From Candidatus Babelota bacterium (lineage in GTDB: Bacteria > Babelota > Babeliae > Babelales > GCA-2401785), in contig VHBT01000004.1 in assembly GCA_016871815.1 (NCBI GenBank), forward strand, positions 5,454 to 69,453: a stretch of 64,000 nt of DNA. Direction: 5' to 3'. The position numbers and the translations under genes are program-made. Below the pieces are notes generated by a model, which did not search any database, was not told the DNA's origin, and saw nothing but the letters and a program-made list of their open reading frames with translations. Shown piece after piece: positions 9,059 through 33,059 of the stretch. Position 1 is the first letter of the stretch. Every line of letters begins with the position of its first letter.

Positions 9059-9250
9059 TGGTAATGCCTTTCACAATATGGTTAAATCCCCAAAAAGAGT
9101 ACTGTATGCAAACGCGTCTTCGTCAAGATTGACGTAAATCCATCAGAACCAAGGCCAATTCAAAAAATCTTTCAATGTGAAACATCTCGATGCCAAAAAA
9201 TATTAATTTTTAATGATTTTCCTAGATTAATAAGTCTTTTTTGCGTGTCA

Positions 9251-9295
9251 CCATAAATTCCAGTACCATAAATTCCAGTACCATAAATTCCAGTA
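9251..9295. repeat. 15-bp perfect tandem repeat x3 (CCATAAATTCCAGTA) immediately upstream of a start codon
   Basis: Three exact copies at 9251-9265, 9266-9280 and 9281-9295, then a degenerate fourth unit CCATCAAAAGTGATA ending 2 nt before the ATG at 9313. Confidence 0.9.
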
Positions 9296-9312
9296 CCATC
9301 AAAAGTGATAGT

Positions 9313-10677
9313 ATGTTTAAAAAACTTGTTTTCAACGTAGCAGCAGTTTTCTCGCTCGCGCCCGTGAGCTCTGCTCCGGCTGACTTTTTCTCAATCGAAG
9401 AAAATCCAACACAGCCAGGGCTTATAAAAATAGGGGCTATTTATTGGACCCAAATGCCCCAAAATAGACTATGGCGACGTCTTTTGTGGCAACAACTCCC
9501 ATCTGAGGCAGCAAAAACAGTCGCAATGTTTGCAAACCGAAAAACAGCAAAAGCGATCTATTCATTTCCTGCACAAGCCGTTTTGGCTGTTCTTGCAAGC
9601 ATTTCAAGGCGAGCAGCCGAAGATGGCATTTCTTCACAAGTTGCGTTCAAAAGCCTTCATGATGCTTTTTACTCTCTTCAATTCAAATTTGATGGCAACT
9701 CTGCATGGCTTAACTACTTCAATGTAGTTAAATACTTGGCACTCGCGTCTCAAATAAAACAACTCTTGTTTGACATCGAAAATGAATGCGCAGACCTTGA
9801 AATCAAAAGCAACATTACCCAAGGATATATTCCACAAAATAACAATTTTTTCGTTCTCCCAACTCAAACATATTTAATTGCGCACGCTGCAAGAAACCTG
9901 CAGACTATGGAATCTTCACCTACCGCAAGTATTCCACTCGTCGACAAAGCAACTTTTTGTGCAAAATGGTACACCGCGCTCAACCACCATATCATTCCAC
10001 ATAAAACAATCTTAAGGCTTTCTCCTGAGCTTCAAGAACGCTGCTATGACCTTTCACACCATATCGCCGCATTAAATATTGGGTTTGATATCTTACCAAT
10101 AAGCATTTCTAACGCTAGGGCTAAAACTATCAACAACCGCGGATGTTACATTAAGAGATTTCCCCAAGATTTTAAAACTTTTGGCGGAACAGAAGAGCTA
10201 AAAAAACAATTCAAAATTGCTGATTTCATGCATCAAACAGCTGGAACCGATAACGCCAAAAACCTAATTTTGATGCTTGTCCATACAAACTTACAAGAAT
10301 TTTTTGAACCAACAGCCATAGAGCTTGCAGAACAAGATTCTCAAGAAGCAGGGGGCCAAGGAGCTGATACAATTCAACGACGAAAAAATAATTTACAACA
10401 AATAAAAAGCTTAAAAGCTGAATTCTTCAAGATAGCCTCAGGCATGAATGGTTTTATTGAAGAATTAAAACCGAATCAAACACTTAGCACAGATGATGAA
10501 ATAGAAACTATGTTAAAAGAAAGAATAACTATTATTTCGAGGTGCATTTTAGCATGGAATCAAGATAGAACCACTGATCTGGATGAGATTAAAAGGAATA
10601 TTTTAACAGCTCCTGCTAGCGATGGTGATACTAGCGATGGTGATACTAGCGATGGTGATACTAGCGATGACGATTAA
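9313..10677 (+). CDS. Hypothetical secreted protein with C-terminal (SDGDT)n repeat
   Basis: Start chosen at the ATG giving the signal peptide MFKKLVFNVAAVFSLAPVSSAPA. The longer ORF from 9241 only translates the upstream tandem repeat. Paralogous to the 28505-29376 fragments. Confidence 0.65.
   Translation: MFKKLVFNVAAVFSLAPVSSAPADFFSIEENPTQPGLIKIGAIYWTQMPQNRLWRRLLWQQLPSEAAKTVAMFANRKTAKAIYSFPAQAVLAVLASISRRAAEDGISSQVAFKSLHDAFYSLQFKFDGNSAWLNYFNVVKYLALASQIKQLLFDIENECADLEIKSNITQGYIPQNNNFFVLPTQTYLIAHAARNLQTMESSPTASIPLVDKATFCAKWYTALNHHIIPHKTILRLSPELQERCYDLSHHIAALNIGFDILPISISNARAKTINNRGCYIKRFPQDFKTFGGTEELKKQFKIADFMHQTAGTDNAKNLILMLVHTNLQEFFEPTAIELAEQDSQEAGGQGADTIQRRKNNLQQIKSLKAEFFKIASGMNGFIEELKPNQTLSTDDEIETMLKERITIISRCILAWNQDRTTDLDEIKRNILTAPASDGDTSDGDTSDGDTSDDD
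10618..10674 (+). repeat. 15-bp in-frame tandem repeat (AGCGATGGTGATACT x3 plus a partial unit) encoding SDGDT repeats
   Basis: Three exact copies read directly at the 3' end of the CDS. Confidence 0.9.
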
Positions 10678-10702
10678 ATTTAATTAACACTCAATTTTTA
10701 AT

Positions 10703-10735
10703 AAAAAAGCGCCTGATTTTTTCAGGCGCTTTTTA
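10703..10735. terminator. Bidirectional rho-independent terminator between convergent genes
   Basis: Stem AGCGCCTGA (10708-10716) / TCAGGCGCT (10722-10730), flanked by an A-run and a T-run. Confidence 0.75.
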
Positions 10736-11173
10736 CTTTTTACCAGAAGCCTTTCCGGTAGAGATTGTTTTCTTTTTTACCGTTCCTTGCGGCTTTACCA
10801 CGGCAGGAGCTTTCTTGCCAGCGACTACCTTTTTCTGCTCAACTTTTTTTTGAACAGCCGTTAAAGCTGGCCCTTCTGTTTTTGCGACAACATCGCCAGA
10901 AGCCCCAGATTGCTTCTTCTCCTCTGTTTTTTTTGATGATCGCATATCAGAAACAACTTCTGCAGCTCCAAATGCAGTAACAACACCCATCCCAGCAATT
11001 GATGTTGCAAGAAGACCTTCTGTAAGGGGATCTTCTCCGTCTCGCGCTGAGTTGGCTACAGCAGAATTAACCAATAGTTGATTTTGGGAAATTAAAAGCG
11101 ATCTTCCCGATAAAACAGTTAATAAAAAAAATACTCTTATTTTTAAGCCAAAAAAGGCAAAATGTTTTTTCAC
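10733..11173 (-). CDS. Hypothetical protein with hydrophobic N-terminus and Lys/Ala-rich C-terminal tail
   Basis: 146-aa ORF. Tail sequence is QKKVEQKKVVAGKKAPAVVKPQGTVKKKTISTGKASGKK. Confidence 0.5.
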   Translation of the reverse strand: MKKHFAFFGLKIRVFFLLTVLSGRSLLISQNQLLVNSAVANSARDGEDPLTEGLLATSIAGMGVVTAFGAAEVVSDMRSSKKTEEKKQSGASGDVVAKTEGPALTAVQKKVEQKKVVAGKKAPAVVKPQGTVKKKTISTGKASGKK

Positions 11174-11197
11174 AAAAATTTTTTCCTAAAATTTTTT

Positions 11198-11719
11198 TTA
11201 TAAATCAGCGATCAACGGCAAAATTTGCTCAGCATGCTTTGCCACATCAATATCATCGATGATATGACGCAAAAAACCTCTAGAGTCAATAATAAATGTT
11301 TTTCGTAACGGCATTAAATTTGGCCACCAGCGACTCGCTTTAAACATTTTTGCAACACGAGCATCTGGATCACTGAGCAAATCAAACCTCAAGCCATATT
11401 GTTTTTTAAATTTTTGGTGCGACTTAATAGAATTGTAACTCACCCCAACAATTTTAAGACCACTTCGTCTAAATTGCTCATATCCATTTAAACTACAAGC
11501 CTGAGCGGTACAGCCTGGCGTTCCATCAGAAGGATAAAAATAAATAAGCAACGGCCTGCCAAGATTTTTACTCAACTGCCAATCTTCATTTGCATCATTT
11601 TTTAAAACAAAATCGGGGACTCTTTTTCCAATTTCAACAAACCCTGCAGGTTGCGCCTGAACATAAAACCCCAAACCAAAAAGCATCACAACGCATAACG
11701 CCAAAACACTGATATTCAT
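11198..11719 (-). CDS. bcp: Thiol peroxidase, Bcp/AhpC-TSA family peroxiredoxin, with N-terminal signal-like segment
   Basis: Motif FYPSDGTPGCTAQAC (peroxidatic Cys context). The ATG at 11719 is preceded by GGGAG. The ORF track's TTG at 11737 is an alternative start. Confidence 0.8.
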   Translation of the reverse strand: MNISVLALCVVMLFGLGFYVQAQPAGFVEIGKRVPDFVLKNDANEDWQLSKNLGRPLLIYFYPSDGTPGCTAQACSLNGYEQFRRSGLKIVGVSYNSIKSHQKFKKQYGLRFDLLSDPDARVAKMFKASRWWPNLMPLRKTFIIDSRGFLRHIIDDIDVAKHAEQILPLIADL

Positions 11720-11797
11720 ATCAAAAAACTCCCACAAGAATCATTCTACGGAAAACATAATCTTGAATAAAAAAGAACTCAAGAAATCAAAAGTATT

Positions 11798-11839
11798 AAA
11801 AAAGGGCACAACGCAACGTGCACATTGTACCCTTTTTTA
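11798..11839 (-). terminator. Probable terminator downstream of the MutS-like gene
   Basis: On the minus strand, GGGTACAA / TTGTGCCC stem (one G-U pair) followed by a T-run. An A-run lies on the other side. Confidence 0.5.
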
Positions 11840-11855
11840 TAAATTAAATAATAAT

Positions 11856-13538
11856 CTAAATCTCTTCTGCTGGAGCAATAATCGTACGCGAAGGCATCGC
11901 ATACCATTCAGAAAGCTTTGAAAGTTCTGGCATATGAGTTGCAGTAAATGTAAGCGTTCTAGGGTTGCAAGCTACGGCATGTACCGTATCAAGCGCAAAA
12001 CGAGTGCCTTTTTTTGCATTTGTTGCCTGCCCCAAAGAATCATCAAACAAAAAGAGTCCACTTTGATGTTGTTCAAGATTTGAAACATTTTGTACCAAGA
12101 ATTCTGCTCGAGCACGTTTTGCAATGTAGCTAGAAAAACCCTTACTCAAATCTTCAGCAACATTCATAAATGAATAAATTTGACTAAAAAGAGCCAGGCT
12201 AAAAATCTGCGCGGCGGCTATCCCAAAGACCTGGGCTAACAAAACATTTACGCCTATAGTTCGTAAAATCGTAGACTTTCCAGCGCCATTATCACCAAAC
12301 AACAACATACCTTTGTCTTCTTTTTGATTATCATACGAAAAGGTTCGAACTCTTTCTGGAGCTACGGTTTGTAATAAAACGGGCAACCAAGATTCTTGTG
12401 TAAGCAAAAGAGGTTTTTCAGCATCCACAAAATCAACAAAACAATAGCACAATCGGTCATTTGCTCGCTGACGCATGGTTTCTGCTACCGATAAATAAAC
12501 GTCAATCTGGCCTACTAGATCAAACAATTGTTGTAATTGCTCTTGAAGAACTAGCATTGATTTAAAATCAACCGCAACACTCGCCAACGGTGAAAAAATA
12601 TTCTTGTTTTTGTAAGACCCAATTTTTGTTTTTGATTGAACTTGTGTCAATAAATCTTCATATGAGTGAACCAAAACGGAGAAATCGGATGCACCATTCG
12701 CATGAACAACACGTAATTCATGCAACAAAGTATCCGCTCGAGAAATAAAATTATTAAACAAGCCCATCGCATCATTAACCTTCTTGGCTAACGACAATTT
12801 AAATGTCGCGGATGCATACGCATCTTTAAGTCCAATAATGTGCAGTAGTGTATGAATTCCCTTTCCATACAATACAACCCATCGAACAAACCCCTTAAAC
12901 ATTCGATGAGACAATGAACACCCACAAGAAGCATGCCCATGTCCGTGTCCATGTCCATGTCCATGTCCGTGTCCGTGTCCGTGTCCGTGTCCATGTCCGT
13001 GCCGATGGGTATGTTCATTCTTGGCAAGGTATAAATGCGCAATTTTAAGAATAACCAACTCAACAATCACAACTGCAAGAGGACTAAATGTCTCTGTATA
13101 ATACTTAAGATTTAAGGCCGCCTTGGAATCATTTAACCTACTTAAAAAAGAAGATTTAAATTCAAACATCCTGACAACTTGCTTAAGATTATCAAGCGAC
13201 GCCTGCTCAAAGGCTGTTGCGAGTTCATTTTGCACGCCAGCAAGACGTACAAGTGCCTCTTTAAGACTATTAAATGCTTTTCCATCAAGATTAAACAACG
13301 TTTTTACCATACCCTGACGAGTCTGCAAGATGCTGATATCATCAAGTGGATTATTCATAAAGTCTTTAAACTTTTGCTCGCCAGCAGCTGTTTGCTGAGC
13401 TACAAAGCTCTTTTGCAGGGAATAACCCGGCAAATCCCCAACACACAAATCATTCGCCGTAAATGAATCCAATTTCCCCCAAATAATTGTTGGGAAAAAA
13501 GCCAATACCAGCACTATTTTTTTTAACAAAAAAGACAT
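11856..13538 (-). CDS. MutS-family (domain V) ATPase-like protein with N-terminal hydrophobic leader and internal (HG)11 tract
   Basis: C-terminal half carries MutS ABC-ATPase motifs: Walker A GDNGAGKST, LFLFDDSLGQATN (Walker B position), FTATHMPEL. No mismatch-binding or Smr region seen. N-terminus is MSFLLKKIVLVLAFFPTIIWG. Confidence 0.7.
   Translation of the reverse strand: MSFLLKKIVLVLAFFPTIIWGKLDSFTANDLCVGDLPGYSLQKSFVAQQTAAGEQKFKDFMNNPLDDISILQTRQGMVKTLFNLDGKAFNSLKEALVRLAGVQNELATAFEQASLDNLKQVVRMFEFKSSFLSRLNDSKAALNLKYYTETFSPLAVVIVELVILKIAHLYLAKNEHTHRHGHGHGHGHGHGHGHGHGHGHGHASCGCSLSHRMFKGFVRWVVLYGKGIHTLLHIIGLKDAYASATFKLSLAKKVNDAMGLFNNFISRADTLLHELRVVHANGASDFSVLVHSYEDLLTQVQSKTKIGSYKNKNIFSPLASVAVDFKSMLVLQEQLQQLFDLVGQIDVYLSVAETMRQRANDRLCYCFVDFVDAEKPLLLTQESWLPVLLQTVAPERVRTFSYDNQKEDKGMLLFGDNGAGKSTILRTIGVNVLLAQVFGIAAAQIFSLALFSQIYSFMNVAEDLSKGFSSYIAKRARAEFLVQNVSNLEQHQSGLFLFDDSLGQATNAKKGTRFALDTVHAVACNPRTLTFTATHMPELSKLSEWYAMPSRTIIAPAEEI
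12933..12998. repeat. Imperfect hexanucleotide microsatellite (RTGTCC x11 on + strand) encoding (His-Gly)11
   Basis: Eleven consecutive ATGTCC/GTGTCC/ATGCCC units read directly. On the coding strand they are CAY GGA codons. Confidence 0.9.
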
Positions 13539-13790
13539 AAAAACCTCTCAGTAACAAATAATTTTTTTAAAACAATGAAACTAAGATTTTTTATGGAGCT
13601 TGAGGCGGAGATACTCTTTCCAGAACGGACTGAGAAAAAAAAATGGTTATTTTTTTAGAATCGCTGCAATGACATCTACACTCAGACGGATGGCTCTCCA
13701 CCGACTTGATAAGCTGGTGGCTTGCACGCGCAGAAAGATGACATGATATACACGACACAATAAAAACCCTAAAAAAGACTTAAAAAAGCA

Positions 13791-13816
13791 AAATGGAGGG
13801 GAAATCCCCTCCATTT
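13791..13816 (-). terminator. Rho-independent terminator downstream of 13862-14278
   Basis: Palindrome AAATGGAGGGGA / TCCCCTCCATTT, with GGAGGGG-AAAT-CCCCTCC at its core. Confidence 0.65.
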
Positions 13817-13861
13817 ACTTTAATTTATTTTACAAAAAATAAAAGCCTGCCCTGAATACAA

Positions 13862-14278
13862 TTAATCGGCAACAAGGTTAACCAAATCAACTGCCTGCTG
13901 CACTCGATGAAAAAGCTCAATCTGTTCATCAAATTCATCTGGAATTAATGCACTTTCCTTTAACAGCGCAATAATCATAAGGCCCTTTGCTTGAATATAC
14001 TGAAAGTCTTCTAGTAATTCATTTTTTTCTAAACGCTCCGCCAGAAATGCTTCTTCAAGATTCTCTCCCGCAAGACCCCGAGCTATCAAAACACCCCTGC
14101 GATCTGCTCTATTTTTACCAACAAACGCTACACGGTTCAACAACTCCTGACTTAATTCAAGAAGGGTTTCTGCATTGGAAGGCTTTGCCTCCCAAACATC
14201 ATACGCATCACCCATTGGCTGAGCTAAGATAATCCCGAAACAACACAATAAACTTAAAAAAACAAGCTTTTTTAGCAT
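13862..14278 (-). CDS. Hypothetical secreted protein
   Basis: 138-aa ORF with signal-like MLKKLVFLSLLCCFGIILA. Confidence 0.5.
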   Translation of the reverse strand: MLKKLVFLSLLCCFGIILAQPMGDAYDVWEAKPSNAETLLELSQELLNRVAFVGKNRADRRGVLIARGLAGENLEEAFLAERLEKNELLEDFQYIQAKGLMIIALLKESALIPDEFDEQIELFHRVQQAVDLVNLVAD

Positions 14279-14484
14279 TTTTAATCCTCAATAACGCATA
14301 CCAATTCATTAATTTAAACTTAAATCAAAAATTATTTGTCTTCAATTTACTATCCGATTGCTAGCTTTTTTTCAAAAAACAGCGCTTCTTCTGATCAAAA
14401 ACCAATCCCTTTGCCCAAAAGTTTTCAACGTGTAACAATTAAAAAGTATCGCAACGTAAGTCAAAATAAAAAATGGAGAAAATT

Positions 14485-14778
14485 ATGAACATTTTTTCAA
14501 AACTATTAATTATCTCGATGATTTCAGTATCAATCACCAGCGGACAAGCAGGAAACTGTCCAACAAGACCAAGCTCAGAAGAACACAGACGGCTTCAAGA
14601 AGCCCATAGAAACCTTGTAGAATTTGGCAGACGCCTAGAAGCACAAGCAGCAGCACTCGCACAAGCAACAGGAGATTTAGCTCAACTTACAGCAGCTGCA
14701 GCAGCCGCCCCACGCAGAGATAAAATCGCTGGCTCTGGTGAAACAGCCGATATCGAAGAAGGCAAAGAAGACGCATAA
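14485..14778 (+). CDS. Hypothetical small secreted Ala-rich protein
   Basis: The ATG at 14485 is preceded by GGAGA (the alternative ATG at 14473 lies inside that RBS). Signal-like MNIFSKLLIISMISVSITSG. Confidence 0.45.
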   Translation: MNIFSKLLIISMISVSITSGQAGNCPTRPSSEEHRRLQEAHRNLVEFGRRLEAQAAALAQATGDLAQLTAAAAAAPRRDKIAGSGETADIEEGKEDA

Positions 14779-29376: not shown

Positions 29377-32300
29377 TCCTCTACGTGAGCATCGGCAGTT
29401 GGGTCAAAATTAAATTTAAAAAACGCTTCGGCATCGTCGGGCTTGTTTTGATTTTGATACAAAATCATTTTAGGGAATGGGAACACAACTCCCTTTTCCC
29501 TGAATAATTTATACAATGCCACACGAATATCACTCGCAACATCCCATTGCTCACGAACCTTACGAATACTGACAAAGCCCCTGACAAAATAATCTGCTGC
29601 CGATGGCGCAAAATTATCCAAGCGAATAACCGCAGGCGGCACACGCAAAACCAGTGCATGTGCATTTAAAACTTTACGAATCAGAGTCATAACAAGGTCA
29701 GGATCGTTCTCGTACCCAACAGTCACGGTAAATTCAAAGCCAACAGAAATTTTGCCTCCACCCCAATTAAATAATGAATGCGAAATTAAATGACGATTGG
29801 GGATAACAACAAAATAATTTTGTGCTGTTCTAATAATCGTTGAGCGTGCAGAAATTTTATGTACCAGCCCTCGCGTATTTTCGATACTTATGTAATGCCC
29901 AATTTCAATTTGACGCTCCAACAAAATCAACAAGCCTGCAACAAAATCTGCAACAAAATCTCTTGATGCCAAAGCAGCACCAACACAAATCGAAATCAAA
30001 ACAGGAAGCACCATCGCCGCTAACTTGACGTATGAAAGGCCAAGCATGAAAGAAAGCAATAAAAAAATGATTCTAAATATCCGCGAAAACGTATTTTGTG
30101 CCCCTGGCTCTGCACCAAAAACCTCATAGACCTTACTCAGGATAAAACGATCTAAAAGAGTCATGACCAAATATCCACATACAACAAAAAGATATACAGT
30201 CAGAATCTCTATAATTCCAATTTTTATTCCATCGTGAGAAAAAACCCACTCATCACAAACTGCTGTCCATAGGCGCGCAAAATTGTACTGCAATCCCCAA
30301 ATCTGAGACAAAACCGCAACCATAAAAAAGCAGAGCGCAAAAAAACTAACCGTAACAAAAAAGCCGTAGTAGACTTTTGCATTTTCAAACCGAGAAACAA
30401 GCTCATCGTCTCGCTGCTCAATAAATACCCACACAACCCGCTCTCGCAAAACCCCATACAAAAATAAGGCGCAAAATACAACCCCTACAGAAACAGGAAC
30501 GAAAAACGCCAAATACCAAGCAAGCTGAGAGTATCCAACATACGGATTTGCAAGCAAACAGAGAAGTACGAAAAAGAAAAAGAGCGGATAAAAATAACGA
30601 TCAACAGACTCCCGCGCACGCAACCAAAAATCACTTCGCCCAAAAAATAATCCAGTAAAATCATCTTTTTCAAAAAATAATGCTAAGGCAACAATCACAA
30701 GCAATGAATAAATCGCGAATAAAACATTTGGAAGAAATTCATACTTTGAACTAAACATTAACAACGCACTGCGCAAGGGGAGAGTAATTGCCGTTGAGTA
30801 AAATAAAACATCAAGCAATAATGTTGTTCTCTTTTGATTGCGTTCTCCGAAAAAGAAGTAACTTAAGCGCGCATTAAGCAATCGTAATTCGGAAAGAAAA
30901 TCATTTGCTAAATAAACCCACACCGGCGCAGAGCATAAAAAGAACCCACTAAATCCAACAGGGCCTGCAAAGAAACTCAAAAGCCCCCAGTACGTAAGCT
31001 TAAATTTAAAATGGATATATAAAAAAAGAAGCATATACACAGCTTGAATTTGCCGCAGAGCTGCATCAAAGAAAAGAAGTAATACGTTTAAATACCAAAA
31101 AATAAACGTTCCATTTTGATATGAAACAAAAAGCTGAAGACGCCTGCGAAGAAATTGTAAAACATGTCCTGCGATAATAAAGCCCGACCAGTACACAATA
31201 AAGGAAAGAAATAAGCCCACAAGCAATGCCCATGAGATCAATCTCAAGAATGAAAAGAAATCAAAAAAGTCATAAATTTTCCAAAAAACCATTTTTGAAA
31301 AATGCTGCAACTCTTCAGTTGCCCGCAGCATCATCACCATTGAAATGCCACGAGAAGATCGACGCCAAATATTTACATTTACACGACGAGCCTCTAGGTC
31401 ATTGATAGTTCCAATACATTGACGCAAAACTCGTTGATAAATTTTTAATAACTCACTCGCCCGAGAACTAATTTTTAAGGCATTAGCACTTTGATGCCGA
31501 ACTGACTCTCTTGCATCATTCAGACTCGCGATAATTTCTTTGCCCTTATCGCCAAGATCTGTTTTTGAAACCTCTATTAAGCGTTTCTTTAAACGATCCT
31601 GCTCTTCTTGCATGTGATGCGAAGCGAGTGCATCATTTTTACGCGCTTCATATGTTTTTATATCATACTCAAGCTTCCTGCGAATGGTGTTAATTTCTTC
31701 AATCAAGCTTCGAGAGATTTCACCCTCTGTTAACAATAAATACCTGATATTAACCTTGGTATAACTAAATCCTTTTTCCATAGCAAGTGCATGAGCAAGA
31801 TCATCATCGGCGGACAATAAAGAAATCTGTCCCGTAAGCGCTTTAATAATGTTTTTATCAAGCGATTCTTTGGCCTGATAAAGCAATCCTTCTGGAGTAT
31901 TTTCTTTTCCGGCAGCCCTTAAGGTTGCTAAGTTTGTTTTAACCTGCTCATAGCGTTCTCGTATGCGCTCTTTTTCAAATGTTTTTTCATTTAAAATTGC
32001 TCGAATTCTATCACGCTCAACACCAAGAAAAGCTTCCTGTTCTTCTTTTTTTGCTTTTAATCGATTGAGGTCAAAACTCTCTATAATTAAATTGTTCTTG
32101 ATCTTTGCAACAAGCGCCAAAAGCTTTTGATTTCGAGCGCGCAAAAGAGCTATTCCATCATCTACAGCAGAAAGATCTAAATCTATTTTTTTTATTTTTA
32201 CTTCAGTCAGAGAAATCTTATCAGCTAAAAGGTCCCGCTCTTTTTGTAACACAGATCGCTTATTTGACTCTTCCTGCTCTTCATAAGAACTAATTTCACC

Positions 32301-33059
32301 GCGACGAATAGGCTGTTCCAATTCTCGCTTTTTTGTCGCAAACTCTTTTTTTAAAAAATCTAATTGATCAAAAAGCGACGTCCGCTCAGGAAGAACAATG
32401 TTTCTTGAGTCCATTTCTTTTTTTATTTGATCATCAACTTCTTCAATTTCCATTTCAACAAAAGTCCAATCTTCTATCGAATAAGGAATTTTTTTCGACA
32501 GATCCTCTCCTTTGCGCACAACCACATCTGATTGCGCTTGAAACGTTTCTATGTTTTCTTCCACAACACCTAGAATTGTTGCCCAAACACGCAAAATCCC
32601 ATTTATAACTTGTTCTTGCTCATCATTCAAAGCCAAAATTTTTTTTTGAGTGTCTTCTCCCAACCGAGCAATTTCTTCGCTCACTTCACCTCGTCGTAAT
32701 TTTGAAGCAAAACCAATAATTGAAAGCCGCCGTAAATCAAACATTTTTAATGCTTTTAATTTTTCTTCGCGCAATTTTTTCAATTTTTGCTCTAATGCTT
32801 CAATTTTTTGAACTCGCAAAACAGTTTCATCACGATTAAAAACTTGCTCAACCGCACGAGTACTTTCTGCTAAAGTCTTAAGACCAAAAAGATTTCCTGT
32901 CATTGACTCCAACCATGACCCGGAATGGTTTTTACTTAAATCATCTCGATCAAAACTTCCCTGCGAAAATAAGAGGTCTTGCGTAAAGATAATAAGCAAA
33001 AGCAAAATAAATTTGCCCGCCCTAAAACTATTAAGATTCCTCACTTCACCGATCCCCAT
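29373..33059 (-). CDS. Large mechanosensitive ion channel, MscK/KefA-like (MscS family)
   Basis: 1228 aa: N-terminal signal, a long coiled-coil periplasmic-type region, about 10 or more TM segments, and a C-terminal MscS-like domain (GLVHKISARSTIIRTAQNYFVVIPNRHLISHSLFNW). Confidence 0.75.
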   Translation of the reverse strand: MGIGEVRNLNSFRAGKFILLLLIIFTQDLLFSQGSFDRDDLSKNHSGSWLESMTGNLFGLKTLAESTRAVEQVFNRDETVLRVQKIEALEQKLKKLREEKLKALKMFDLRRLSIIGFASKLRRGEVSEEIARLGEDTQKKILALNDEQEQVINGILRVWATILGVVEENIETFQAQSDVVVRKGEDLSKKIPYSIEDWTFVEMEIEEVDDQIKKEMDSRNIVLPERTSLFDQLDFLKKEFATKKRELEQPIRRGEISSYEEQEESNKRSVLQKERDLLADKISLTEVKIKKIDLDLSAVDDGIALLRARNQKLLALVAKIKNNLIIESFDLNRLKAKKEEQEAFLGVERDRIRAILNEKTFEKERIRERYEQVKTNLATLRAAGKENTPEGLLYQAKESLDKNIIKALTGQISLLSADDDLAHALAMEKGFSYTKVNIRYLLLTEGEISRSLIEEINTIRRKLEYDIKTYEARKNDALASHHMQEEQDRLKKRLIEVSKTDLGDKGKEIIASLNDARESVRHQSANALKISSRASELLKIYQRVLRQCIGTINDLEARRVNVNIWRRSSRGISMVMMLRATEELQHFSKMVFWKIYDFFDFFSFLRLISWALLVGLFLSFIVYWSGFIIAGHVLQFLRRRLQLFVSYQNGTFIFWYLNVLLLFFDAALRQIQAVYMLLFLYIHFKFKLTYWGLLSFFAGPVGFSGFFLCSAPVWVYLANDFLSELRLLNARLSYFFFGERNQKRTTLLLDVLFYSTAITLPLRSALLMFSSKYEFLPNVLFAIYSLLVIVALALFFEKDDFTGLFFGRSDFWLRARESVDRYFYPLFFFFVLLCLLANPYVGYSQLAWYLAFFVPVSVGVVFCALFLYGVLRERVVWVFIEQRDDELVSRFENAKVYYGFFVTVSFFALCFFMVAVLSQIWGLQYNFARLWTAVCDEWVFSHDGIKIGIIEILTVYLFVVCGYLVMTLLDRFILSKVYEVFGAEPGAQNTFSRIFRIIFLLLSFMLGLSYVKLAAMVLPVLISICVGAALASRDFVADFVAGLLILLERQIEIGHYISIENTRGLVHKISARSTIIRTAQNYFVVIPNRHLISHSLFNWGGGKISVGFEFTVTVGYENDPDLVMTLIRKVLNAHALVLRVPPAVIRLDNFAPSAADYFVRGFVSIRKVREQWDVASDIRVALYKLFREKGVVFPFPKMILYQNQNKPDDAEAFFKFNFDPTADAHVED

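What the first reader, a model, noticed from the sequence alone, without database searches (positions are those of the whole stretch)
11856..13538. MutS-domain-V ATPase with hydrophobic N-terminal leader and an (HG)11 microsatellite-encoded tract
The C-terminal ~200 aa carry MutS-type ABC ATPase motifs (GDNGAGKST, DDSLGQATN, ATHMPEL). I see no mismatch-recognition domain and no Smr domain.

The protein starts with a signal/TM-like helix (MSFLLKKIVLVLAFFPTIIWG). It has another hydrophobic stretch (FSPLAVVIVELVILKIAHLYL) directly before the His-rich run HTHRH(GH)11ASCGC. That run looks like a metal-binding loop of the kind seen in metal transporters and metallochaperones.

At DNA level the tract is 11 imperfect hexamers (12933-12998), which could vary in length between strains. 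A membrane-associated, possibly metal-binding MutS-like ATPase is unlikely to act in classical mismatch repair.
Basis: partly seen in the sequence, partly recalled or inferred. Interest (0 to 1): 0.6.

Follow-up and report, generated by a model that had tools for sequence, protein, structure and literature searches.

The report
Exported MutS8-like ATPase with histidine loop
An intracellular (Dependentiae) bacterium encodes a cut-down relative of the DNA-repair protein MutS with an export signal, a likely metal-binding histidine-glycine loop where the DNA clamp normally sits, and a damaged catalytic site, so it is very unlikely to repair DNA; similar proteins are known from giant viruses and other symbionts.

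Summary
The 560-aa ORF (11856-13538, minus strand) has a MutS domain V, a weak domain III, no domains I, II or IV and no Smr. It has a signal-like N-terminus and an (HG)11H tract encoded by 12933-13001.

The window comes from a Candidatus Dependentiae MAG. The protein is a very diverged member of a large clade of domain III+V MutS paralogs. More than 2,000 cluster representatives match at E<=1e-30. Giant-virus contigs carry full-length III+V homologs, so this is most probably the MutS8 subfamily.

Signal-peptide-like N-termini occur in 114/136 bacterial members, 0/46 viral homologs and 1/38 classical MutS. Secreted MutS8 proteins were already noted in Cardinium.

Three things are new here:
- The His/Cys-rich loop sits at the tip of the domain III helical hairpin, where the clamp would be. 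Five other family members have such a loop at the same place, flanked by conserved E160, H229 and H233.
- The catalytic Glu is lost, uniquely among 198 aligned homologs.
- The C-terminus is truncated.

The second hydrophobic stretch is part of a lever helix, not a membrane span. Most likely this is an exported, ATP-binding but poorly hydrolysing protein with a metal-binding tip. Variation in tract length could not be tested.

The parts
11856..13538 (-). Complete CDS, 560 aa: a MutS8-like protein with domains III and V only
   Evidence: ORF list. Pfam MutS_V and MutS_III. A family profile built without this protein matches it with hhalign probability 100%, E 2.6e-39, over 497 columns.
13544..13549 (-). 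Shine-Dalgarno-like GAGAGG, 5 nt upstream of the ATG
   Evidence: Upstream sequence read. Only three codons lie between the upstream in-frame stop and the ATG.
13476..13538 (-). Residues 1-21, a Sec-type signal-peptide-like N-terminus (KK, 14-residue hydrophobic run, IWG|K)
   Evidence: Heuristic scan. AF2 models helix 2-14 followed by a disordered segment at 14-37. The trait is present in 114/136 bacterial family members, 0/46 viral homologs and 1/38 classical MutS.
12468..13439 (-). Residues 34-357, MutS core (domain III) interrupted by the hairpin tip
   Evidence: Pfam MutS_III covers aa 49-352 at 23.4 bits, below cut-off. 22/25 relatives match MutS_III, best E 1.8e-17. Foldseek's best hits are MutS structures.
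13002..13124 (-). Residues 139-179, outgoing lever helix containing the 'second hydrophobic stretch' (aa 151-172) and E160
   Evidence: AF2 helix 139-179, pLDDT about 62-81. Kyte-Doolittle 2.25, but E160, K165 and H168 lie within a 140-degree arc, and the rough Hessa sum is +2.7.
12915..13019 (-). Residues 174-208, His/Gly/Cys loop NEHTHRH(GH)11ASCGCS at the hairpin tip
   Evidence: AF2 models 180-208 as disordered. His-rich loops occur in the same alignment columns in P0003, P0129, P0147, P0178 and P0180.
12933..13001 (-). Imperfect hexanucleotide repeat (CAY GGR)11 CAT encoding (HG)11H
   Evidence: TRF. Codon table shows only synonymous differences between units. The tract is identical in three assemblies.
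12699..12914 (-). Residues 209-280, returning lever helix with the conserved H229-x3-H233
   Evidence: AF2 helix 209-280. H233 is invariant and H229 is present in 5/6 members of the His-loop set.
11904..12305 (-). Residues 412-545, MutS domain V (ABC-type ATPase), ending before the last ~45 residues of the domain
   Evidence: Pfam matches profile positions 2-129 of 188. The alignment shows that the NYKV...RPFKLE.GIS...IA.DIL segment is missing.
12270..12296 (-). Walker A, GDNGAGKST (aa 415-423)
   Evidence: Read from the sequence. K421 is conserved in 152/152 family members.
12036..12053 (-). Degenerate Walker B/catalytic motif FLFDDS (aa 496-501)
   Evidence: The position after the Walker B Asp is Glu in 151/152 bacterial and 46/46 viral homologs. 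Here it is Ser (MAFFT, HMMER) or Asp plus a one-residue insertion (hhalign).
11797..11839 (-). Terminator-like hairpin plus T-run 17 nt after the stop codon
   Evidence: Consensus scan. A second hairpin at 13791-13816 closes the upstream gene, so the gene looks monocistronic.

Best explanation
The gene encodes a fast-evolving, shortened member of a large clade of MutS paralogs that contain only the core (III) and ATPase (V) domains.

The clade:
- It is shared by Dependentiae and giant viruses and is most probably the MutS8 subfamily.
- The bacterial members have gained a Sec-type signal peptide, so the protein is exported from the cytoplasm, to the periplasm or onward to the host.
- These bacteria import host ATP, so nucleotide should be available outside the cytoplasm.

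The fold:
- It is MutS-like. A long helical hairpin of domain III projects from the core.
- Where MutS carries its DNA clamp (domain IV), ordinary family members have two extra helices.
- This protein and a few relatives instead have a disordered His/Cys-rich loop, flanked by conserved E160 on the outgoing helix and H229-x3-H233 on the returning helix.
- I infer that this tip binds a divalent metal (of the Zn/Ni/Cu kind), or titrates with pH, and that this controls what the two arms of a dimer hold.

The ATPase site:
- The nucleotide-binding residues are intact: Walker A K421, Walker B Asp, S469, T506 and H535.
- The catalytic Glu is lost, and the C-terminal part of domain V that includes the dimerisation helices is missing.
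- The protein probably binds ATP but hydrolyses it poorly, acting as a switch or pseudo-enzyme rather than a repair motor.

Shown: architecture, fold, family membership, conservation pattern, motif loss.
Inferred: export, metal binding, weak hydrolysis, site of action.
For: Identity and fold:
- Pfam MutS_V and MutS_III.
- The AF2 model has pLDDT 76.6 and pTM 0.73. Its best structural matches are E. coli MutS, Taq MutS and MutSbeta.
- A family profile without the window protein matches it at E 2.6e-39.

Size of the clade: 2,049 representatives at E<=1e-30, with the top 150 above 358 bits.

Organism: neighbouring proteins are named Candidatus Dependentiae bacterium. Relatives lie in TM6/Babeliales MAGs.

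Giant-virus homologs:
- They score 315-517 bits and have III+V only.
- They have NCLDV-type neighbours, Erv1 and TBP.
- Bacterial and viral members form one clade in 21/25 NJ bootstraps.

Export signal:
- 114/136 bacterial members against 0/46 viral and 1/38 classical MutS.
- The median hydrophobic run is 13 aa.
- Cardinium MutS8 proteins also carry predicted signal peptides (PMC5698495).
- Dependentiae import host ATP, and 44% of C. destructans CDS carry signal peptides (PMC6561590).

Tip loop:
- It is disordered and lies between helices 139-179 and 209-280.
- His/Cys/Asp-rich loops occur at the same columns in five other members, with invariant E160, H178, H180 and H233.
- All variation inside the tract is synonymous.

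Catalytic site: S501 and K474 are unique among 198 homologs, while the binding residues are kept.
Against: - No signal-peptide or topology predictor was available. The export call rests on a home-made heuristic, and about half of all ORFs in this window pass a lenient version of it.
- Metal binding is inferred from composition and conservation only. Matches to metal-protein models are weak and compositional (ZrgA, DmeF, RcnA and SlyD, E 0.002-0.16).
- In the window protein two of the helix-1 His positions seen in relatives are Leu and Lys.
- The hhalign alignment places Asp, not Ser, at the catalytic position, so some hydrolysis may remain.
- The protein sits on the longest branch of the family tree and lacks the end of domain V, which also fits functional decay.
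- No conserved gene neighbour points to a pathway.
- Membership of MutS8 proper could not be checked against a named reference sequence.
Confidence: 0.5

Rival explanations
1. Decaying paralog. The gene is a relic of the family under relaxed selection. The HG microsatellite expanded because nothing selects against it, and the protein has little or no function.
For: - It has the longest branch in the NJ tree, 1.04.
- It has uniquely lost the catalytic Glu and E474.
- It has lost the C-terminal ~45 residues of domain V.
- It is only 22-26% identical to any relative.
- Other coding tandem repeats occur in the same genome.
Against: - The 560-codon ORF is intact in a 61% A+T genome, with an SD-like site and its own terminator.
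- All nucleotide-binding residues and 12 family-invariant positions are retained.
- Tract variation is purely synonymous.
- His-rich loops at the same site in five relatives, with conserved flanking ligand-type residues, argue for a selected feature.
- Three relatives with intact catalytic Glu share the same C-terminal truncation.
Confidence: 0.2
2. pH sensor rather than metal site. The exported protein meets the acidified food vacuole of the protist host. Protonation of about 18 His makes the tip cationic and switches binding to membranes or nucleic acid.
For: - The window loop is almost pure His/Gly, without the Asp/Glu seen in relatives' loops.
- Dependentiae enter hosts by phagocytosis into food vacuoles (PMC6561590).
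- The loop is modelled as disordered.
Against: - Relatives' loops are rich in Asp, Glu and Cys together with His (HDHHHDHHHDHED, CDHDHEHHEHG), which is typical of metal ligands.
- The conserved E160, H229 and H233 on the helices suggest a fixed coordination site.
- The two readings are not mutually exclusive.
Confidence: 0.15
3. Membrane ATPase. The N-terminal helix and the two hairpin helices span the inner membrane, with the His loop on the far side. The protein would be a MutS-derived, ABC-like metal transporter or sensor.
For: - Kyte-Doolittle 2.25 for aa 154-172.
- Weak hits of the 154-203 stretch to the CDF DmeF and RcnA models.
- The relative P0147 lies next to MgtE.
Against: - The N-terminal hydrophobic run is 14 aa (family median 13), too short for a span.
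- The partner helix has K215, R219, K226, H229 and H233, Kyte-Doolittle 1.15 and a rough insertion energy of +7.7.
- Only 7/152 family members have both helices above 1.6.
- AF2 continues both helices into the soluble domain III core.
- A signal peptide followed by a two-span hairpin would put the ATPase outside the cytoplasm anyway.
Confidence: 0.07
4. Ordinary cytoplasmic MutS function, either mismatch repair or MutS2-type recombination control or ribosome rescue.
For: MutS_V and a MutS fold. JGI names one relative 'DNA mismatch repair protein MutS'.
Against: - No domain I, II or IV, no Smr and no KOW.
- TIGR01070 scores 68 bits against a cut-off of 642, and TIGR01069 scores 33.5 against 400.
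- It has an export signal and has lost the catalytic Glu.
- C. destructans, another member of the phylum, has a separate mutS/mutL (PMC6561590).
Confidence: 0.04

Closest known systems
MutS8 subfamily (Ogata et al. 2011), in giant viruses of the Mimiviridae/'Megaviridae' and in Amoebophilus and Cardinium. Cardinium CAHE_0017 and CAHE_0267 have predicted signal peptides (PMC5698495, PMC3749498).
   Same: - Only the MutS core and the C-terminal ATPase domain are present.
- It occurs in giant viruses and in obligate intracellular bacteria of eukaryotes.
- Bacterial copies carry signal peptides and viral ones do not.
- Copies are often paired. Tandem pairs are seen in L010 and L015, and Cardinium and Amoebophilus each have two copies.
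   Different: - The host phylum is Dependentiae, and the family is very large there.
- The window protein has a His/Gly/Cys loop at the hairpin tip, no catalytic Glu and a truncated domain V.
- Identity with named MutS8 sequences was not tested directly.
MutS1 / MSH2-3-6 mismatch-repair proteins (E. coli, Taq MutS, human MutSbeta)
   Same: - Best sequence and structure matches: 134-170 bits for the family profile and Foldseek E about 1e-13 with TMq about 0.5.
- Same order of core helices, lever hairpin and ABC-type ATPase.
   Different: - No mismatch-binding domain I, connector II or clamp IV.
- Has an export signal.
- The catalytic Glu (E694 in E. coli MutS, from my own knowledge) is not conserved.
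- No C-terminal helix-turn-helix.
MutS2 (Smr-containing; recombination suppressor and ribosome-collision rescue factor)
   Same: Lacks domains I and II. It is an example of a MutS ATPase used for something other than mismatch repair.
   Different: - No Smr, KOW or coiled-coil tail.
- The family profile scores only 60-87 bits on MutS2 chains against about 150 on MutS1.
- MutS2 is cytoplasmic.
His-rich metal-binding loops of ZnT/CDF and ZIP transporters, RcnA, ZrgA, and the SlyD/HypB tails
   Same: Runs of His with Gly, Asp or Cys in a flexible loop. The HG run alone pulled a fish ZnT4 out of the protein database (P0006) and gave weak hits to DmeF, RcnA, SlyD and ZrgA models.
   Different: These are compositional matches only, all far below the family cut-offs. 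No transporter or chaperone fold is present.
KamC, lysine 5,6-aminomutase reactivase ATPase (NF052383)
   Same: A MutS-type ATPase core used outside DNA repair. It is the third-best NCBIfam hit.
   Different: It scores 48.6 bits against a cut-off of 300, and there is no aminomutase gene context.

Membership tests
MutS superfamily (Pfam MutS_V, PF00488) | Domain V score above the gathering threshold | tested here: met
   50.8 bits against 30.2, over aa 412-545.
MutS superfamily (Pfam MutS_V, PF00488) | Nucleotide-binding residues: Walker A Lys, Walker B Asp, signature Ser, Thr of DExxxGT, switch His | tested here: met
   K421, D500 (or D499), S469, T506 and H535 are all present.
MutS superfamily (Pfam MutS_V, PF00488) | Catalytic Glu directly after the Walker B Asp | tested here: not met
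   Glu in 151/152 bacterial and 46/46 viral homologs. The window has Ser (MAFFT, HMMER) or Asp plus an insertion (hhalign).
MutS superfamily (Pfam MutS_V, PF00488) | MutS fold: helical core with lever hairpin plus an ABC-type ATPase | tested here: met
   AF2 pTM 0.73. The top 50 Foldseek PDB hits are all MutS or MSH chains.
MutS1 (mismatch repair MutS, TIGR01070 / PRK05399) | Domain I with the mismatch-binding motif, domain II, clamp domain IV, and a whole-protein score above cut-off | tested here: not met
   No PF01624, PF05188 or PF05190. 68.2 bits against 641.7, and 63.4 against 480.
MutS2 (TIGR01069) | C-terminal Smr domain and a whole-protein score above cut-off | tested here: not met
   No Smr. 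33.5 bits against 400. MutS2 PDB chains score 60-87 bits against about 150 for MutS1.
MutS8 subfamily | Architecture of MutS core (III) plus C-terminal ATPase (V) only | tested here: met
   The InterPro domains listed for Cardinium MutS8 are core, P-loop and C-terminal (PMC5698495).
MutS8 subfamily | Forms one clade with giant-virus III+V MutS proteins, apart from other MutS subfamilies | tested here: met
   46 viral homologs score 315-517 bits on the family HMM. Bacterial and viral members are monophyletic in 21/25 NJ bootstraps. Non-family MutS score 99 bits or less.
MutS8 subfamily | Clusters with the named reference MutS8 sequences (PoV, PpV, Amoebophilus, Cardinium CAHE_0017/0267) | not testable with these tools
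   No named reference sequence could be fetched.
   hhalign probability 100%, E 2.6e-39, 497 columns.
   The heuristic is positive: two Lys plus a 14-aa hydrophobic run. No trained predictor and no experiment were available.
CDF / RcnA / ZIP metal transporters | Multi-span membrane domain and a family-model score above cut-off | tested here: not met
   DmeF scores 17.4 bits against 250, and PRK10019 scores 12.1 against 195. The hairpin helices are not TM-like.
Anti-phage defence ATPases (PADLOC) | Match to a defence-system model beyond the P-loop | tested here: not met
   Only P-loop-length matches of 16.4 bits or less.

The most novel reading that the evidence does not exclude
Dependentiae export a large, diversified set of MutS8-type ATP-driven clamps, originally shared with giant viruses, into the periplasm or the host cell, where they run on host ATP. 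One lineage has replaced the clamp tip with a metal-binding His/Cys loop. The window protein would be a catalytically dead, metal-gated version that binds a host or viral nucleic acid or another polyanion. That would make it a secreted MutS-derived effector rather than a repair protein.
Probability: 0.25. Interest if true: 0.75.

Novelty: new variant of a known kind. Interest (0 to 1): 0.5.

Why it matters
MutS proteins are textbook cytoplasmic or nuclear DNA-repair ATPases. MutS2's role in ribosome rescue has already shown that the core can be reused. Here an obligate intracellular phylum has hundreds of signal-peptide-bearing MutS8-type paralogs whose nearest relatives are in giant viruses that infect the same kinds of host.

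This points to gene exchange between symbionts and viruses, and to a MutS-derived effector class of unknown function.

The window protein gives an experimental handle on that class. It has a short, natural metal- or pH-responsive tip at the clamp position, and a natural catalytic-site mutant.

If the export and metal-binding inferences fail, this is simply a diverged, possibly decaying MutS8 paralog of modest interest.

Tried and rejected
- Word-index protein searches. The first found only five relatives and a fish zinc transporter. A repeat with a 25-sequence alignment and another with a six-sequence alignment from which the His loops had been deleted gave nothing new. The family only became visible with the exhaustive HMMER search.
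- Metagenome scans. An exact 24-mer from the tract flank and the His-loop alignment both found nothing, so no strains with other tract lengths were recovered.
- The afdb50 fold library was not installed.
- Ogata et al. 2011 is not held.
- TM-hairpin reading. Rejected on the hydropathy of the partner helix, family-wide values and the AF2 model.
- MutS2 reading. Rejected on domain content and scores.
- Defence-system ATPase. Rejected.
- Operon-based inference. Neighbourhoods differ between relatives. The only recurrence is S6-S18...BipA-TruA synteny between P0178 and P0004.
- Monophyly of the six His-loop proteins. Not supported: 0/40, and 3/25 for a clade of 15 or fewer. One NJ run that grouped them changed with the distance cap, so I do not claim it.
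Full report
**1. The observation**

- Pfam finds MutS domain V above threshold (50.8 bits against 30.2, aa 412-545).
- It also finds a split, sub-threshold match to the MutS core, domain III (23.4 bits against 34.1, aa 49-352).
- Domains I, II and IV and Smr are absent.
- NCBIfam models for MutS1, MutS2 and KamC all match only the ATPase part, far below their cut-offs.

The His-Gly run is residues 180-202, window 12933-13001.
- Its 23 codons are CAC x6, CAT x6, GGA x10 and GGG x1, so every difference between repeat units is synonymous.
- The rest of the gene uses CAT 10 times and CAC twice.
- TRF reports it as a period-6 array of 10.3 copies.

The gene looks like an independent unit.
- A GAGAGG lies 5 nt upstream of the ATG, and only three codons separate the upstream stop from the start.
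- Terminator-like hairpins close the upstream gene and follow this one.

The exact protein and DNA recur in a JGI assembly and a Logan assembly. Both are 100% identical to the window over 7.7-10.8 kb. They rule out an artefact of one assembler but say nothing about strain variation.

**2. Organism**

Neighbouring proteins (GyrB, RNR alpha, TopA, an MscS-like protein) are exact matches to NCBI entries named Candidatus Dependentiae bacterium, on a 72.6-kb contig. G+C is about 0.39.

Dependentiae are obligate intracellular parasites of protists. In the cultured C. destructans they import host ATP, and 44% of CDS are predicted to carry a signal peptide (PMC6561590). A lenient heuristic flags 27 of 51 ORFs in this window.

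**3. The family**

The word-index search found only a handful of relatives at 22-32% identity. An exhaustive HMMER search with a five-sequence profile found 2,049 cluster representatives at E<=1e-30. The best 150 all score above 358 bits, and most are 650-750 aa.
- All 25 sampled members match MutS_V and 22 match MutS_III. None matches domain I, II or IV.
- A profile built from 48 members without the window protein matches it with hhalign probability 100%, E 2.6e-39, over 497 columns.
- Named genomes carrying the family are TM6/Babeliales MAGs. All strong loci have 33-44% G+C.
- Some genomes carry tandem pairs.
- Gene neighbourhoods differ between relatives.

**4. Link to giant viruses and MutS8**

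A scan of IMG/VR found about 46 distinct full-length homologs on giant-virus contigs.
- They are 580-720 aa, score 315-517 bits on the family HMM, and sit on contigs with G+C 17-33%.
- They again have domains III and V only, with no HNH.
- One locus has Erv1 and TBP-like neighbours, as expected for a giant virus.
- In neighbour-joining trees the Dependentiae and viral proteins form one clade apart from all other MutS types sampled (21/25 bootstraps).
- The family profile scores 134-170 bits on MutS1, Msh2 and Msh3 structures and 60-87 on MutS2.

The literature describes exactly this pattern as subfamily MutS8. It is found in 'Megaviridae' (PMC3749498) and in Amoebophilus and Cardinium. Mann et al. 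noted, 'somewhat surprisingly', that both Cardinium MutS8 proteins have predicted signal peptides, and proposed that they act on host DNA (PMC5698495).

I could not compare with a named MutS8 sequence, so membership is probable, not proven.

**5. The N-terminus**

A simple test was applied: at least one Lys or Arg, then an uncharged run of at least 8 residues that is at least 60% strongly hydrophobic.
- It is positive in 114 of 136 full-length bacterial members.
- It is positive in 1 of 38 classical MutS and in 0 of 46 viral homologs.
- The hydrophobic run has a median of 13 residues (14 in the window protein). That is signal-peptide length, not membrane-span length.
- AF2 models residues 2-14 as a detached helix followed by a disordered linker.

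Export is therefore a well-supported inference, but it was not tested with a trained predictor.

**6. The second hydrophobic stretch and the His loop**

The AF2 model (25-sequence alignment, pLDDT 76.6, pTM 0.73) has a helix at 139-179, a disordered segment at 180-208 and a 72-residue helix at 209-280. Together these form a long hairpin projecting from the domain III core. Its best structural matches are MutS structures.

In MutS the clamp (domain IV) is inserted at the tip of such a hairpin. That statement is from my own knowledge, but it is consistent with the unaligned middle of the profile. A typical family member, P0045 (pLDDT 89.5), has two extra helices there. The window protein has the His/Gly/Cys loop.

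The hydrophobic stretch is the distal half of the outgoing helix.
- Its three polar residues, E160, K165 and H168, lie on one face.
- The partner helix carries K215, R219, K226, H229 and H233.
- Rough insertion energies are positive for both helices.
- Only 7 of 152 members have both helices above the usual hydropathy threshold.

I therefore reject a membrane hairpin.

Five other members (P0003, P0129, P0147, P0178, P0180) have His/Cys/Asp-rich loops in the same columns, with no sequence similarity between the loops.
- E160, H178, H180 and H233 are invariant in this set, and H229 is present in five of six.
- One of them, P0178, is found with identical sequence in several samples.
- Position-conserved, sequence-variable ligand-rich loops with conserved ligand-type residues on both flanking helices are what a metal site looks like. 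This is the basis for the metal-binding inference.
- The six proteins do not form a supported clade, so the loop may be ancestral or may have arisen more than once.

**7. The ATPase site**

Across 152 bacterial and 46 viral homologs the following are essentially invariant, and all are kept in the window protein: Walker A Lys, Walker B Asp, the signature Ser, the Thr of DExxxGT and the switch His.
- The Glu after the Walker B Asp is present in 197 of 198. The window protein alone has Ser there by MAFFT and by HMMER against Taq MutS. By hhalign it has Asp followed by a one-residue insertion.
- E474, conserved in 138/152 bacterial and 46/46 viral homologs, is uniquely Lys here.
- The last ~45 residues of domain V are missing. 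The same truncation occurs in P0003, P0147 and P0180, which keep the Glu.

From established ABC and MutS enzymology (my own knowledge), loss of this Glu preserves ATP binding but cripples hydrolysis.

**8. Interpretation and limits**

The best reading is an exported MutS8-type protein that binds ATP, has a metal-responsive (or pH-responsive) tip in place of a clamp, and does not repair the bacterium's own DNA.

Its ligand and site of action are unknown. A decaying paralog is the main rival. Nothing here tests whether the tract length varies.

The membrane association does not hold. The protein belongs to a kind that has been named and partly discussed before.

Noticed in passing
window 9241-14778: Five of six consecutive genes on both strands begin with signal-peptide-like N-termini by the heuristic. 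They are the 478-aa ORF (from Met25), the 146-aa ORF, the MutS-like gene and the 138-aa ORF, plus by eye the 101-aa ORF. The AhpC/TSA protein also looks signal-like by eye. None of the small ones has a Pfam match.
   Followed up: partly
window 9250-9299 and 10616-10669: Two perfect 15-bp tandem repeats lie at the two ends of one ORF (9241-10677). They encode INSST x3 near the N-terminus and DGDTS x3 at the C-terminus. Coding short tandem repeats recur in this genome.
   Followed up: no
window 22984-23096: A 36-bp tandem repeat (3.1 copies, 79% matches) lies inside the 197-aa ORF 22656-23249.
   Followed up: no
window 11198-11737: An AhpC/TSA peroxiredoxin with a hydrophobic N-terminus lies directly downstream of the MutS-like gene. 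The relative P0178 lies near a thioredoxin-fold gene. This may be coincidence. The loop also contains a CGC motif.
   Followed up: no
L010 4927-6870 and 7141-9153; L015 1991-4408 and 4399-6894: Family members occur as adjacent tandem pairs in a Lake Zurich MAG and in a Babeliales MAG. This recalls the MutS4A/B pairs and the two copies in Cardinium and Amoebophilus, and could mean heterodimers.
   Followed up: no
L006 (CP064965.1) and L023: P0004 and P0178 sit in a similar context (ribosomal S6, S18 ... BipA ... TruA), suggesting positional orthology even though only P0178 has a strongly His-rich loop. P0004 also has Gly in place of the Walker B Asp (FCGEPY).
   Followed up: partly
L080 (IMGVR_UViG_3300021376_005448): A giant-virus contig carrying a III+V MutS homolog comes from the same JGI metagenome (3300021376) as the Dependentiae contig L001. 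Virus and symbiont carrying related genes therefore co-occur in one sample.
   Followed up: no
L008 (P0003): The ORF of P0003 runs to the first base of its 1.7-kb contig. Its lack of a signal peptide is a truncation artefact, not a feature.
   Followed up: yes
window 29373-33059: A 1,228-aa protein has MscS channel domains only at its C-terminal end, leaving a very long N-terminal region of unknown function.
   Followed up: no
window 1-64000: GC skew is negative in every 2-kb bin across the whole window (cumulative -4.6). The window therefore lies within one replichore, with no skew switch.
   Followed up: no
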